Both the position numbers and the translations under genes were made by a program. A stretch of 64,000 nt of DNA from positions 17,932 through 81,931 of the forward strand of contig DAOVBM010000001.1 of NCBI GenBank assembly GCA_030670545.1, written 5' to 3'. The notes below the pieces were generated by a model. That model did not search any database, had not been told where the DNA came from, and saw only the letters and a list, made by a program, of their open reading frames with translations. Shown one piece after another: positions 31,728 through 37,643 of this stretch. Numbering within the stretch: the stretch's first letter is position 1; every line of letters begins with the position of its first letter. This DNA is from Candidatus Woesearchaeota archaeon (lineage in GTDB: Archaea; Nanobdellota; Nanobdellia; Woesearchaeales; JAGLGH01).

Positions 31728-32663
31728 CTATTGCATGCTCACTTCCCGTACAAGGTCAAGTTCATTCTCATTCAGCCAATCAGCAGCATCTTTGTTGGTA
31801 TAATCACAATCCATGATAGCTTTCAATATTATTTTCTTATCATCTTTCTCTTTGCTTTTGAAATATTCAATAAATTTTTGAGAATCTTTCTTATACATAT
31901 TCATGTAATCCAGATTCACTTCCTTAAATCCTTGTGACCATAAAAAAGAATCATGAGAAAGGTCTCTTTCCTTTACGCTTGTCAGGTGTCTGACAACTCT
32001 TTGCTGTTTATCATTGTTAGGAAGGCATTCAAAGTATTCCTGAAAATGTTTGCCTTTAGTATATTCGTTTATCAAAATATCAACATAATCACTTACTTTA
32101 TGATACCGCAAGAACGTTTTATTCCACTCAATGTTCTGGTCTTCATAAGGAATGCTAAAAACAAAATTGTAGAAATCATCACGTAAATTACTACTATTAT
32201 TATTATCAATGTATGATTTATAATTATCAACATAATCATCTATCCTCAAAACAGTCATTGCATATAAAATATTTGCAGGGACATCTTTATAGCACAACCT
32301 TTTTAGGTCTTGTTTCTCGTTTTTGCCAATCAAAGCATATGGCGTGATTATAAATGGAACCTTTTGATCATAACTATACCTGCTTCTCTCTTGTTTTATT
32401 ATAGATATATTTGTTAGAAAGAAATAATTAGCATCTTCAAGGTAGGAGTATTTGTACAGCAGGTTATCAATAATAGATAGAGTAAAGTTATTATCATATT
32501 TACCACTTTGACTTTGTTCTCCATAAATCTGCGCAGCAACCTGATAAAAGGCAGAACTGTTCTTTAGAAGCTGTTCTTTATGAGTTTCTTCAATAATAAT
32601 CTTCCTTTTTCCCTTGGCGCCTAATTCTCTTGCCAGAATCCGTGCTGCTTTTTCTTCATCCAT
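31728..32663 (-). CDS. Paralog 1 (311 aa) of a tandem unknown-function family with a conserved MDEEKA...ILxxEL N-terminus and a ...NDSFLWSQGFKEVNLDYMNMYKKD...DWLNENELDLVREVSM C-terminus.
   Basis: Shares about 100 nt of identical 3' sequence with the 32656..33909 gene. Shorter than its siblings through a central deletion. Confidence 0.65.
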   Translation of the reverse strand: MDEEKAARILARELGAKGKRKIIIEETHKEQLLKNSSAFYQVAAQIYGEQSQSGKYDNNFTLSIIDNLLYKYSYLEDANYFFLTNISIIKQERSRYSYDQKVPFIITPYALIGKNEKQDLKRLCYKDVPANILYAMTVLRIDDYVDNYKSYIDNNNSSNLRDDFYNFVFSIPYEDQNIEWNKTFLRYHKVSDYVDILINEYTKGKHFQEYFECLPNNDKQQRVVRHLTSVKERDLSHDSFLWSQGFKEVNLDYMNMYKKDSQKFIEYFKSKEKDDKKIILKAIMDCDYTNKDAADWLNENELDLVREVSMQ

Positions 32664-33909
32664 CCATGCTCACTTCCCGTACAAGATCAAGTTCATTCTT
32701 ATTCAGCCAATCAGCAGCATCTTTGTTGGTATAATCGCAGTTCATGATGTCTTTCAATATTATCTTCTTATCCTCTTGCTCTTTGCTTTTGAAATATTCA
32801 ATAAATTTTTGAGAATCTTTCTTATACATATTCATGTAATCCAGATTCACTTCCTTAAATCCTTGTGACCATAAAAAAGAATCATTGGCAAGATTTCTTT
32901 CAGACGCATTTTTCATGCTCCTGACAAAATTCTGCTGTTGTGCATTGTTAAGGCACATGAAATAGTCCTGGAAATGCCTGCCTTTAGCATATTCATCTGC
33001 CATAATTTCTGGATAATCAATATTCTCTGCATACAATTTAAGGATTTCCTTATTCACATTAATATTTTGGTCTTCATAAGGCATGCTGAAAACAAAACTC
33101 AGGAAATCAGGCAGCACATCCTTATATTTCCCAATAGAGGTGTATTTCTCAAATTCATACTTTTTGAATTTAAAACGTCCCATGGATATCCAATCATCAC
33201 AAGGAATGTTAGATGTCTTGCTCAGTATTCTACTAATTATATTATTTAACTCTCCAATCGAATGCTGAAAATGATTCTCAATCCTGCATCTCTCAGTGTG
33301 ACCTTTCTTGTTATGAACAAGGCATGACTGGGAATTAACGAATTTCAAATAAAGTTCATACTTTTCCATGAATTCTTTGTCCATGCCGCCTTGAGAATAA
33401 AGCTTATACAGCTCGCTATAATCCTGGATATCCAGTGTTCTCATGGCAGATGCAATATTCTGGTCAACATCTTTGTAGAAATGTTTCCTGAGATGATTAA
33501 CTTCTTTCTTCCCAATGATTGAATATGGTGTCACAAAGAAATAAAAACCAGTTGAGGATTGAGAAGCAGTACCAGTAACAGGTTGATCTATAAAAAAGTA
33601 ATTTGCGCTTTTGTATTTTTCTTCAGCAGCAATAGCTTTGTCAAGAGAATAATAAAATAAGTAATCGCTTTGTGTATGTTGACTATTAACAAAATTCCAT
33701 CCATTTTCCTGAGTCTGCTTACCATCATTAATTGTGGTTTTAATGCGAGAACCATAGCAATGTCCTGCTACAAACGGATCACTATGCTGATAGAAGTGCA
33801 TTGATTTTTCTGTCAGTTTATCCTTCCATCTTGTGTCCCTGACTATGGAAATGCCTAAGTCCTTAGCAAGGTTTTCAGTCAGGATTTTGATTGCTTTTTC
33901 TTCATCCAT
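32656..33909 (-). CDS. Paralog 2 (417 aa) of the same family.
   Basis: Conserved motifs FFVTPYSIIGKKE and FSMPYEDQNI. Its stop overlaps the next start within ATGGATGGATGA. Confidence 0.7.
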   Translation of the reverse strand: MDEEKAIKILTENLAKDLGISIVRDTRWKDKLTEKSMHFYQHSDPFVAGHCYGSRIKTTINDGKQTQENGWNFVNSQHTQSDYLFYYSLDKAIAAEEKYKSANYFFIDQPVTGTASQSSTGFYFFVTPYSIIGKKEVNHLRKHFYKDVDQNIASAMRTLDIQDYSELYKLYSQGGMDKEFMEKYELYLKFVNSQSCLVHNKKGHTERCRIENHFQHSIGELNNIISRILSKTSNIPCDDWISMGRFKFKKYEFEKYTSIGKYKDVLPDFLSFVFSMPYEDQNINVNKEILKLYAENIDYPEIMADEYAKGRHFQDYFMCLNNAQQQNFVRSMKNASERNLANDSFLWSQGFKEVNLDYMNMYKKDSQKFIEYFKSKEQEDKKIILKDIMNCDYTNKDAADWLNKNELDLVREVSMDG

Positions 33910-36264: not shown

Positions 36265-36420
36265 ATCGAAAATTTCGCAAGAAATTTTATTGGGGTTTAA
36301 TACCCCTCACTTCAGTGCGAAATTTTGGATTCCAAAAATTTGATAATCTATAATGCGAATCCGTAATACCCCACCATTTATGATGAGGATAGGATTTGCT
36401 ATCAATAAATTGTCAAATTT
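36265..36420. repeat. R2 copy with modules A and B only, lacking the twin-palindrome insert.
   Basis: Colinear with 59596-59684 plus 59816-59895. Confidence 0.75.
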
Positions 36421-37643
36421 TTGTTATCTGAAAAACTGGCTTCTCTTATAAGTTCAATTTCATTTTCATTTAGCCAATTTTCAATATTACTATTAGTATG
36501 ATCACATGCCAGAACATCCCTAATAATGATCTTTTTTTCCTCTGGATTTTTAGTCTGGAAATATTCAATAAATCCATCAGCATCTTCCATGTAAAGGTTC
36601 ATGTGATCAAGGTTCACTTCCTTAAATCCTTCAGACCATAAAAATGAATTATTAGCAGTGTTTTCCATTCCACTGTTTTTAATTTTCCAGACAATTCTTT
36701 TCTGATTCTCTGCATTCAGTACTTCAAAATATTCCTTGAAATGCTTTCCCTGGAATTCTCTTAATAAAATAATATCCATATCCAGTAAATGAGGAGTTTT
36801 TTCCAATAAACCTTTGTTTGCTTCAATGTTCTGGTCTTCATATGGCATCTCAAAAGCAAACCTGTAGAAGTCATGTATTAATTTGTCATCAGGAGAATCA
36901 TATATTAAGATGTTATACTCAGGATTTCCTTTATTGATCAATTCAATCAGATTTTCTATATTGCATCTTTTAATCCATGTAGTCTCACTTCTTGGCTGTA
37001 AACTAAAATCAATGCTGAATTTTTTTAGTGTTGAGTTTAGACTGTCAATTTGATGAATCCCTTTAAAATCTGTCATATTCACTTCATTATCCTTATCATA
37101 TGTAATCTGATTTAAAAACTCAACAGTTTCCTGCCTGAACTTTGAAAATCCCAAAGACTCTTGAAAAATATTTTCAGAATCTTCAGAAGAATATGCCATG
37201 TATAATTCAAAATAATCCTTTATGCCCAGGCTGCTGACAGCTTCCCTGATTTTGAGGTCATAATTTTTGTAAAACAGTCTTTTGACATCTTCAATTTCCT
37301 TGCTGCCTATTATTGAGTATGGGGTCAAAGCGCGTTTGATCAAACTTGATTTATATTGTGGTGTATGCCCTAAATCAAATAAATAATTTGCTTCTTCAGG
37401 AACATGACCTTTTATGAATTCCTCAATATTAGGGAAACTGTTTCCATTTGTCAAATCATAAAATTCCTGTTTTTGTGTTAAACTACTCAAGTCTTCACGG
37501 AATTCAACTGGATTGCCTGCTGCATAAATCTGCTCAGATTCATTAAACAGCTTTTTCATGTAGTTCTGGTCAGAGATTATAAGCTGGCCATTATGCTTTA
37601 CAAGTTCCTTTGTTAAAACTTTTGTTGCTTTGTATTTGTCCAT
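36402..37643 (-). CDS. Paralog 4 (413 aa), the most divergent member of the family.
   Basis: ALTPYSIIGSKE, FEMPYEDQNIEANK, and the C-terminus NNSFLWSEGFKEVNLDHMNLY. Confidence 0.65.
   Translation of the reverse strand: MDKYKATKVLTKELVKHNGQLIISDQNYMKKLFNESEQIYAAGNPVEFREDLSSLTQKQEFYDLTNGNSFPNIEEFIKGHVPEEANYLFDLGHTPQYKSSLIKRALTPYSIIGSKEIEDVKRLFYKNYDLKIREAVSSLGIKDYFELYMAYSSEDSENIFQESLGFSKFRQETVEFLNQITYDKDNEVNMTDFKGIHQIDSLNSTLKKFSIDFSLQPRSETTWIKRCNIENLIELINKGNPEYNILIYDSPDDKLIHDFYRFAFEMPYEDQNIEANKGLLEKTPHLLDMDIILLREFQGKHFKEYFEVLNAENQKRIVWKIKNSGMENTANNSFLWSEGFKEVNLDHMNLYMEDADGFIEYFQTKNPEEKKIIIRDVLACDHTNSNIENWLNENEIELIREASFSDNKNLTIY

What the first reader, a model, noticed from the sequence alone, without database searches (positions are those of the whole stretch)
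31728..37643. Tandem array of four paralogs of an unknown protein family with homogenised ends and 8-nt start/stop overlaps
Three adjacent genes, plus a fourth beyond an intervening gene, encode 311-428-aa proteins. They share the N-terminus M(D/H)(E/K)EKA..L..EL, internal motifs (F)(F/I)(V/I)TPYSIIG.(K/D)E and (S/T)(I/M)PY(E/N)DQNI, and a C-terminal ~80 aa ...NDSFLWSQGFKEVNLDYMNMYKKD...DYTNKDAADWLN(E/K)NELDLVREVSM. The middle regions are hypervariable. The 3' ~230 nt of neighbouring genes are 95-100% identical; for example the ~100-nt stretch 31861-31960 equals 32798-32897. That contrasts with divergent centres and implies ongoing gene conversion. Each stop overlaps the next start inside ATGGATGGATGA. 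There is no signal peptide and no recognisable catalytic motif. This looks like an intracellular variable-specificity family, for example sensor or immunity modules, diversifying by recombination between constant ends. I cannot place it in any family I know.
Basis: partly seen in the sequence, partly recalled or inferred. Interest (0 to 1): 0.75.

Follow-up and report, generated by a model that had tools for sequence, protein, structure and literature searches.

The report
Undescribed DPANN archaeal tandem gene family
Four neighbouring genes belong to an uncharacterised protein family found only in a small group of tiny symbiotic (DPANN) archaea; the family has no recognisable fold, sits at the end of a conserved operon, and its copies are reshuffled by recombination, but its function is still unknown.

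Summary
Four paralogs of 311-428 aa lie on the minus strand, with 8-nt stop/start overlaps and shared motifs. The quoted repeat coordinates are 6 nt out of register. Near-identity (93.5% over 231 nt, one 107-nt exact run) holds only for the P1/P2 pair.

The genes form the multi-copy tail of a conserved operon: a small membrane protein, two long-helix proteins, an unknown ~340-410-aa protein, a DUF6638 protein, then 4 to 12 or more paralogs.

Gene conversion of the 3' ends is supported in this genome. A related contig carries a chimera of the kind unequal crossing-over produces. The "hypervariable" centres are 59-68% identical between orthologs of P2 and P3, so they are paralog-specific.

The last ~65 aa form a portable module found on at least 16 unrelated N-terminal architectures. 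My best guess, which is inference, is that this module is a shared docking handle for an operon-encoded partner. Sensor or immunity roles are untested.

The parts
31728..32663 (-). P1, the short family member (311 aa). It lacks the middle helical insert.
   Evidence: The family HMM matches in two pieces, 1-152 and 239-393.
32656..33909 (-). P2, a family member of 417 aa. This protein was the one modelled.
   Evidence: AlphaFold2 model with pLDDT 88.4 and pTM 0.76.
33902..35188 (-). P3, a family member of 428 aa.
35181..36239 (-). Single-copy DUF6638-family gene (352 aa), translationally coupled to P3.
   Evidence: Pfam PF20343: E 2.7e-7, 30.2 bits against a cut-off of 27. Orthologs in L001, L003 and L004 are 45-47% identical.
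36240..36401 (-). Intergenic gap that contains a palindromic repeat element of about 85 nt.
   Evidence: Further copies lie at 59603-59685 and 23591-23677. RNA fold z-score -5.3.
36402..37643 (-). P4, a family member of 413 aa. It took no part in the 3' homogenisation.
37673..38908 (-). Single-copy operon gene of unknown family (411 aa).
   Evidence: Orthologs of 337-363 aa in L001, L003 and L004. No family hits.
38892..39605 (-). Single-copy long-helix protein (237 aa). The true start is probably at M11.
   Evidence: Orthologs. Weak profile similarity to the 380-aa protein.
39565..40707 (-). The most conserved operon gene (380 aa). It is all-helical, with an invariant FNPAMIAITAV segment.
40744..41094 (-). 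First operon gene, a small protein (116 aa) with a glycine-rich C-terminal hydrophobic segment.
   Evidence: Kyte-Doolittle 19-residue maximum 1.83 at residue 77. Orthologs.
31734..31964 (-). C-terminal module of P1 (77 codons). Its counterparts are 32665-32895 (P2), 33911-34141 (P3) and 36432-36662 (P4).
   Evidence: The module also occurs alone on other proteins.
31848..31954 (-). 107-nt stretch identical to 32779-32885, the core of the P1/P2 conversion tract.
32656..32663 (-). 8-nt stop/start overlap ATGGATGA. The same overlap occurs at 33902-33909, and ATGCATAA occurs at 35181-35188.
   Evidence: The same junction type is found across the family in L001, L003, L004 and L005.

Best explanation
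SHOWN. The four genes belong to an undescribed multigene family restricted to a sublineage of DPANN archaea (Nanoarchaeota/Woesearchaeota MAGs). They form the multi-copy 3' part of a conserved, chromosomally syntenic operon. Its order is: a small membrane protein, a ~380-aa long-helix protein, a ~235-aa long-helix protein, (a short paralog, absent from this window), a ~340-410-aa unknown protein, a P4-type paralog, a DUF6638 protein, then 2-9 further paralogs. Each family protein has an N-terminal alpha/beta domain, a paralog-specific helical insert (missing in the short forms), and a helical C domain. The last ~65 aa of that C domain also occur as a self-contained module on many unrelated proteins. 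The copies are chained by conserved 8-nt stop/start overlaps, which implies translationally coupled co-expression. Arrays grow and are remodelled by unequal crossing-over at conserved motifs. In this genome, gene conversion has homogenised the 3' ends of the three adjacent copies. INFERRED MECHANISM. The C-terminal module is a common docking or targeting handle. It attaches a repertoire of different 'heads' to one shared partner, most plausibly one of the single-copy products of the same operon. Candidates are the DUF6638 protein, the 411-aa protein, or the helical and membrane proteins. Co-evolution with that single partner would explain why the module is the part kept uniform. What the assembled complex does is not known. 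The symbiotic lifestyle of these archaea and the membrane-associated helical proteins make a role at the cell envelope or in host contact the most plausible guess.
Against: No interaction has been demonstrated or modelled. The module has no similarity to any known docking, targeting or secretion domain. No ATPase, transporter or other recognisable machinery is encoded in the operon. Strong homogenisation of the module is seen only in this genome, so it may be a single neutral conversion event and not a sign of partner co-evolution. The functions of all the operon partners are themselves unknown.
Confidence: 0.4

Rival explanations
1. The paralogs are co-assembling structural subunits. They would be made together in fixed proportions and would build one hetero-oligomeric structure (ring, filament or lattice). 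The conserved N and C parts would form the subunit interfaces and the paralog-specific inserts would be exposed, as in archaellin arrays or thermosome paralogs.
For: Conserved 8-nt overlaps imply coupled, stoichiometric translation of all the copies. Each paralog type is conserved across genomes, inserts included, which fits fixed and differentiated subunits. Gene conversion among archaeal paralogous subunits has precedent (from my own knowledge, not checked here).
Against: Copy number runs from 4 to 12 or more between related genomes. The arrays include truncated forms and 216-223-aa genes that share only the module. The module also ends unrelated proteins encoded elsewhere in the genome. All of this fits a fixed-stoichiometry assembly poorly.
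Confidence: 0.2
2. The paralogs would be an intracellular repertoire of variable-specificity sensors or immunity proteins, for example against toxins or viruses, diversifying by recombination.
For: The family is expanded, varies in copy number and recombines. The proteins are soluble and cytoplasmic. The neighbouring region carries Fic genes and small TA-like ORFs.
Against: PADLOC gave no hit. No effector, nuclease or ATPase partner is present. The centres are conserved between orthologs at 59-68%, which is not the pattern of an arms race. The locus is a syntenic core operon, not a variable island. No cognate toxin gene is evident.
Confidence: 0.12
3. The paralogs are cargo or effector proteins delivered into or onto the host cell. 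The route would be a pore built by the ClyA-like long-helix proteins and the small membrane protein of the operon, and the C-terminal module would serve as the delivery signal.
Against: The model of the 380-aa protein is poor (pLDDT 64, pTM 0.44). De novo helical bundles score as high as the toxins, so the match is generic for long helices. There is no Pfam or PDB sequence match to the ClyA, Hbl or Xax families. Known alpha-pore-forming toxins do not translocate cargo.
Confidence: 0.12
4. The near-identical 3' segments are an assembly artefact, either a duplication or a chimera of strains.
For: The contig is a metagenome assembly. In one MAG the arrays of this family are broken into many short contigs, which shows that assemblers struggle with them.
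Against: The copies are not identical: 15 differences in 231 nt, and an exact run of only 107 nt. Each copy is in frame inside a different complete gene that has its own orthologs. The same junction architecture recurs in five independent assemblies.
Confidence: 0.03

Closest known systems
Cohesin-dockerin type modular docking (cellulosome)
   Same: A short portable C-terminal module is appended to many unrelated proteins and would tie them to a common partner. This resembles how I think the system works.
   Different: There is no sequence similarity, no Ca-binding duplicated motif and no recognisable scaffoldin. The proteins have no signal peptide, so any assembly would be intracellular unless they are exported by an unknown route.
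Bartonella Bep effectors with a C-terminal BID domain (type IV secretion signal)
   Same: Tandemly duplicated paralogous proteins share a helical C-terminal domain that acts as a transferable targeting signal on different N-terminal parts.
   Different: No T4SS or any other ATPase-driven machine is encoded nearby. There is no homology to BID. The organism is an archaeon. The comparison rests on my own knowledge, not on a test run here.
Polymorphic toxin / immunity loci (LXG, Rhs, CDI systems)
   Same: Tandem arrays with tight gene overlaps, a constant part joined to variable parts, and recombination at the conserved boundaries that generates chimeras.
   Different: The polarity is reversed: here the constant module is C-terminal. 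No toxin or immunity domain was detected. The variable parts are conserved between orthologs.
Archaeal tandem paralog families that undergo gene conversion (archaellins, thermosome subunits)
   Same: Adjacent paralogs in archaea whose conserved termini evolve in concert within a genome.
   Different: There is no homology. Here the copy number is far more variable, and the conserved terminus is a domain shared with unrelated proteins.
ClyA-family alpha-pore-forming toxins (ClyA, XaxAB/YaxAB, Nhe/Hbl/Ahl/Mak). This applies to the upstream 380-aa gene only.
   Different: There is no sequence-family match, the model has low confidence, and designed helical bundles score equally well. The family is so far known from bacteria.

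Membership tests
Pfam DUF6638 (PF20343), for the intervening 352-aa gene only | Score at or above the Pfam gathering threshold | tested here: met
   30.2 bits against a cut-off of 27, E 2.7e-7, covering profile positions 15-254 of 439. Four close relatives carry the precomputed PF20343 hit. The family has no known function, and no paper in the library mentions it.
Any curated protein family (Pfam, NCBIfam, PHROGs), for the four paralogs | A significant profile match | tested here: not met
   No hit better than E 0.008, and none near a curated cut-off. The C-terminal module searched on its own also gave nothing.
Known anti-phage defence systems (PADLOC) | A match of any operon protein to a defence-system model | tested here: not met
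   No hit for the four paralogs or the DUF6638 protein. Among the nine operon proteins the best E-value is 0.016 (411-aa protein, PDC-S05), and none is significant.
Polymorphic toxin-immunity systems | A toxin with a constant N-terminal trafficking domain and a variable C-terminal toxin domain, followed by cognate immunity genes | tested here: not met
   The constant module is C-terminal. No toxin or immunity domain was found. The 380-aa protein is conserved along its whole length, so it is not polymorphic.
Antigenic-variation cassette systems (one expression site plus silent cassettes) | Promoterless or truncated silent copies that donate sequence to a single expressed gene | tested here: not met
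   Every copy is a complete ORF with its own ATG, coupled to the preceding stop.
WXG100 / type VII secretion (for the 380-aa protein) | A WXG100-family match above threshold, plus an FtsK/SpoIIIE-type ATPase in the locus | tested here: not met
   A W-H-G motif is present at residue 51, but the scores are 12-15 bits against cut-offs of 27-45. The operon encodes no ATPase.
ClyA-family alpha-pore-forming toxins (for the 380-aa protein) | An elongated helical tail with a hydrophobic head domain, and a family-level sequence or structure match | tested here: inconclusive
Provirus / mobile element | Viral hallmark or integrase genes, occurrence on viral contigs, and variable insertion sites | tested here: not met
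   No relatives in IMG/VR, INPHARED or PLSDB. No PHROG hits. L003 and L004 have syntenic housekeeping flanks.

The most novel reading that the evidence does not exclude
The operon encodes a new DPANN-specific host-interaction apparatus. ClyA-like helical proteins and a small glycine-rich membrane protein would form a membrane-active assembly. The ~65-aa C-terminal module would be a new archaeal targeting signal that recruits, and possibly delivers, a recombining repertoire of soluble proteins. These would include the paralog array, the long repeat proteins and the small proteins encoded elsewhere in the genome.
Probability: 0.12. Interest if true: 0.85.

Novelty: new variant of a known kind. 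Interest (0 to 1): 0.55.

Why it matters
DPANN archaea depend on physical contact with host cells, and almost nothing is known about the proteins that mediate that contact. This finding gives a concrete and testable object. It is a conserved ~10-kb operon confined to one Woesearchaeota/Nanoarchaeota sublineage. It holds a protein family with no match to any solved fold searched, expanded to between 4 and more than 12 copies per genome. It also holds a ~65-aa C-terminal module that the same organisms attach to at least 16 unrelated protein architectures.

If the module proves to be a docking or targeting signal, it would mark out a whole set of functionally linked proteins in these genomes. If it does not, the locus is still a clean natural example of array evolution in a reduced archaeal genome, by unequal crossing-over at a conserved motif and by localised gene conversion.

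Tried and rejected
- **Family searches:** Pfam, NCBIfam, PHROGs and PADLOC scans of all nine operon proteins and of orthologs gave only sub-threshold noise, apart from DUF6638.
- **PDB sequence searches:** profile searches with the family, the DUF6638 orthologs, the 380-aa family and the isolated module found nothing meaningful.
- **Internal homology:** hhalign among the paralog family, the DUF6638 orthologs and the 411-aa orthologs showed no relationship. They are therefore not cryptic paralogs of one another.
- **AFDB Foldseek:** the library was not available.
- **Phage and plasmid searches:** tblastn against phage and plasmid collections and a scan of IMG/VR found nothing, so I rejected the provirus and plasmid readings.
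- **Literature:** searches for DUF6638, DPANN tandem paralogs, DPANN pore-forming proteins, ClyA in archaea and Woesearchaeales gene clusters found no description of this family or operon.
- **Domains fused to the module:** a Pfam scan of 41 module-bearing proteins gave only isolated hits (GXGXG in two, 60KD_IMP in one, TPR) and no common theme.
- **Promoter scan:** the sigma-70 scan is uninformative for an archaeon, and its counts equal the shuffle expectation.
- **Rfam:** no hits in the window.
- **Source record:** I could not identify the window's own assembly record.
- **dN/dS:** I did not attempt a formal dN/dS of centres against ends. The paralogs are saturated in the centres (about 20% amino-acid identity), and I had no ortholog DNA at suitable divergence. 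I used region-wise ortholog identities and synonymous-codon counts instead.
- **'Truncated' DUF6638 gene:** I considered this and rejected it. The N-terminal extension that the window's gene lacks is unconserved among orthologs.
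Full report

Yes, with corrections. The minus strand carries four complete ORFs: P1 31728-32663 (311 aa), P2 32656-33909 (417 aa), P3 33902-35188 (428 aa) and P4 36402-37643 (413 aa). 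A 352-aa gene (35181-36239) lies between P3 and P4.

The four proteins align over their whole length, and 90 columns are invariant. These include ANYFF, TPYSIIG.KE, PY(E/N)DQNI, SFLWS.GFKEVNLD and the C-terminal block. P1 simply lacks the ~90-100-residue middle segment.

ATGGATGA sits at the P2/P1 and P3/P2 junctions and ATGCATAA at the 352-aa/P3 junction.

The true repeat offset is 931 nt. The exact run is 107 nt, 31848-31954 = 32779-32885.

Over the last 231 nt the identities are as follows:

| Pair | Identity |
|---|---|
| P1/P2 | 93.5% |
| P2/P3 | 86.6% |
| P1/P3 | 84.4% |
| any pair with P4 | about 70% |

None of the four has a hydrophobic N-terminus or a TM-like segment.

**2. Is the 3' similarity gene conversion?**

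Two independent tests say yes for P1-P3.

- **Synonymous sites.** In the last 78 codons, same-residue codons differ in 3 of 64 cases for P1/P2, 13 of 60 for P2/P3 and 11 of 55 for P1/P3. For pairs with P4 the figure is 14-18 of 38-42.
- **Region-wise nearest neighbours.** For P1, P2 and P3, the N domain and the first half of the C domain are closest to proteins from other assemblies: P0041 at 70%, P0003/P0002 at 70-76%, and P0023/P0017 at 68-87%. The last 77 residues, in contrast, are closest to the adjacent paralog in this window (89% and 82%, against 71-78% for the best foreign sequences). P4 is closest to its ortholog P0032 in every region.

An assembly duplication is unlikely. The copies differ at 15 of 231 positions, each is in frame within a different gene that has its own orthologs, and the same junction architecture recurs in independent assemblies.

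This homogenisation is not a general property of the family. In four other arrays, the best C-terminal identity within a genome is about the same as the best between genomes.

**3. What is the family?**

- **Sequence libraries.** Pfam, NCBIfam, PHROGs and PADLOC give nothing for the paralogs.
- **Relatives.** A search of 5.8 billion proteins found 47 relatives. None carries a Pfam domain, and the only names are 'hypothetical protein' from Nanoarchaeota and Candidatus Woesearchaeota MAGs.
- **Exhaustive profile search.** A search of 1.84 billion cluster representatives found 195 proteins at E ≤ 1e-3.
- **Species genomes.** Only three of 185,579 species-representative genomes matched, and all three are Nanoarchaeota/Woesearchaeota MAGs.
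- **Mobile elements.** There were no matches in IMG/VR, phage or plasmid collections.
- **Structure.** An AlphaFold2 model of P2, built on a 40-sequence alignment, is confident (pLDDT 88.4, pTM 0.76). It shows an alpha/beta domain at residues 1-132 followed by an all-helical remainder.

On this evidence the family is uncharacterised and has no recognisable fold.

**4. Context: a conserved operon**

Loci fetched around relatives show the same gene order as the window. They are L001 (68-kb JGI contig), L003 (GCA_016783795.1), L004, L005 (GCA_030691925.1) and L015/L019. The order, with the window's gene in brackets, is:

1. A ~95-116-aa protein with a glycine-rich hydrophobic C-terminal segment (window 40744-41094; Kyte-Doolittle maximum 1.83; alignment).
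2. A ~370-400-aa all-helical protein, the best conserved of the set at 45-51% identity (window 39565-40707).
3. A ~230-aa helical protein (window 38892-39605).
4. A short paralog, absent from the window.
5. A ~340-410-aa unknown protein (window 37673-38908).
6. A P4-type paralog.
7. A DUF6638 protein (window 35181-36239; PF20343 at 30.2 bits against a cut-off of 27).
8. An array of 2-9 further paralogs.

The total number of paralogs is 4 in the window, L003 and L004, 12 in L001, and at least 10 in L005.

L003 and L004 are flanked by the same housekeeping genes: KH/PNO1-like and FmrO upstream and Topo VI downstream. L001 and L004 share acetyl-CoA synthetase and CobA downstream. The cluster is therefore chromosomal and vertically inherited, not a mobile island.

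The stop/start junction is conserved throughout these arrays. The C-terminus ...REV(S/G)x(D/N)G-stop encloses the next gene's ATG, giving ATGGATGA or ATGGATAA. This implies translational coupling of the whole chain.

The paralog family, the DUF6638 orthologs and the 411-aa orthologs are not detectably related to one another.

**5. The centres are paralog-specific, not hypervariable**

The identities by region are:

| Comparison | Middle insert | N domain |
|---|---|---|
| P2 against P0002/P0003 | 63-64% | 69-71% |
| P3 against six relatives | 59-68% | 59-67% |
| P4 against P0032 | 50% | 71% |
| between paralogs in the window | 19-23% | 37-39% |

Each paralog type has recognisable orthologs in distant arrays as well. 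The array is therefore an old set of differentiated genes.

**6. Recombination does reshape arrays**

P0004 is a clean chimera. Its residues 1 to about 125 are P2-type (80-96% identical to P2-type sequences) and the rest is P3-type (64-92%). The switch falls at the conserved TPYSIIG motif.

On its contig (L017) the gene order is: end of a P4-type gene, P3a, P3b, the chimera, then a P2-type gene. This is the product expected from unequal crossing-over between a misaligned P2 and P3.

**7. A portable C-terminal module**

Profile positions ~360-423 match on their own at the extreme C-terminus of many other proteins of 79-752 aa. These include:

- long proteins made of ~100-residue repeats (P0138, P0141, P0143, P0159);
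- small proteins of 99-164 aa;
- the 216- and 223-aa genes inside L001's array.

Among 41 representatives, the N-terminal parts fall into 16 unrelated BLAST clusters. Pfam shows no common theme among them.

P0159 is a stand-alone gene beside the RNA-polymerase/ribosomal-protein cluster, in the same assembly that holds L003.

The module itself matches no Pfam family and no PDB sequence. It is also exactly the part that was homogenised in the window.

**8. The upstream helical proteins**

The 380-aa protein could be modelled only poorly (pLDDT 64, pTM 0.44), as a set of very long helices.

The protein has an invariant, moderately hydrophobic FNPAMIAITAV segment. It also has a W-H-G motif with sub-threshold WXG100 hits. 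The 237-aa protein shows weak profile similarity to it (hhalign probability 60%).

I treat 'ClyA-like' as a lead only.

**9. Interpretation**

The following points are shown:

- the family is undescribed and confined to DPANN archaea;
- it forms the expandable tail of a conserved, translationally coupled operon;
- each protein has a modular build that ends in a portable ~65-aa module;
- arrays evolve by unequal crossing-over, and in this genome by 3' gene conversion.

The function is inferred. I think the module is a shared docking or targeting handle that links diverse 'heads' to one partner, probably a product of the same operon. I give the explanation as a whole (shown anatomy plus this inference) a confidence of about 0.4; the docking step is its weakest part. 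The purpose of such a complex is unknown. An envelope or host-contact role is plausible for these symbionts.

The rivals, with my confidence in each, are:

| Rival | Confidence |
|---|---|
| co-assembling structural subunits | 0.20 |
| sensor or immunity repertoire | 0.12 |
| cargo delivered through a ClyA-like pore | 0.12 |
| assembly artefact | 0.03 |

**10. Novelty and score**

All membership tests against known families and systems failed or were inconclusive, apart from DUF6638 for the neighbouring gene, and that family has no known function.

The way the locus evolves, and the way I think it works, have known analogues: a constant portable module on variable partners in tandem recombining arrays. 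The proteins themselves do not. I therefore rate it a new variant of a known kind, built from an uncharacterised protein family.

Interest is 0.55. The anatomy is solid and reproducible, and it opens a testable question in DPANN biology, but no function has been demonstrated.

Noticed in passing
window 36240-36401; also 59603-59685 and 23591-23677: The 162-nt gap between P4 and the DUF6638 gene holds a palindromic repeat element of about 85 nt (core TCAAATTTTTGGAATCCAAAATTTCGCAC...GCGAAATTTTCGATAA). A second intergenic copy is 98.8% identical, and a third is diverged and inverted. The gap folds far better than shuffled sequence (-44.5 kcal/mol, z -5.3) and has no Rfam match. It looks like a MITE/REP-like element and could also carry an internal promoter or a processing site.
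   Followed up: partly
L017 (ENA ERZ23498622, 5.2-kb contig), genes 251-5227: The related array has the order P4-end / P3a / P3b / chimera (P2-type N-terminus joined to a P3-type remainder) / P2-type. There is no DUF6638 gene between P4 and P3. This looks like a direct footprint of unequal crossing-over at the TPYSIIG motif.
   Followed up: yes
window 42296-44960: Two Fic/DOC-domain paralogs (42296-43270 and 44010-44960) flank a pair of small overlapping ORFs (43390-43677 and 43662-43946). The pair is arranged like a toxin-antitoxin module but has no Pfam hit.
   Followed up: partly
window 45066-45386 (-): A 106-aa ORF gives a weak match (E 2e-5 in a window-only search) to family HMM positions 269-318, the GKHF..YF..L...Q..V helix pair. 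It could be a distant fragment or a shared motif, and it overlaps the start of the 291-aa gene at 45376-46251.
   Followed up: no
window 1324-12957 (-) and 152-1327 (-): A 3877-aa protein with bacterial Ig-like domains (Big_3_3, Big_13) is followed by a 391-aa Ig-like-domain protein. Giant surface proteins of this kind are typical of DPANN archaea.
   Followed up: no
window 31920-31960, 32851-32891, 34097-34137, 36618-36658 (approximate): The ~40 nt that encode FLWS.GFKEVNLD are almost identical at the nucleotide level even between P4 and the other copies, although synonymous sites elsewhere differ in 33-43% of same-residue codons. Codon bias, a short conversion tract or a nucleic-acid-level constraint could each explain this.
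   Followed up: no
P0182 and other module-bearing proteins (not in the window): In P0182 the ~65-aa module is internal (residues 204-266) and is followed by about 160 further residues. Among 41 module carriers, one has a 60KD_IMP (YidC/Oxa1-like) domain and two have GXGXG domains. These may be real fusions, or gene calls merged across the tight overlaps.
   Followed up: no
window 38892-39605 and 37673-38908: The listed starts of the 237-aa and 411-aa genes are probably too far upstream. Orthologs align from M11 of the 237-aa protein and from about M10 of the 411-aa protein. The window also lacks the short paralog that sits between these two genes in L001, L003, L004 and L005.
   Followed up: partly
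Genome-contig loci L011-L014 and L016 (JAGLGH01, MAG RS_10_27): In this MAG the family is scattered over five contigs of 1.7-3.5 kb. This suggests that assemblers break at these arrays, so copy numbers in MAGs are likely underestimates.
   Followed up: no
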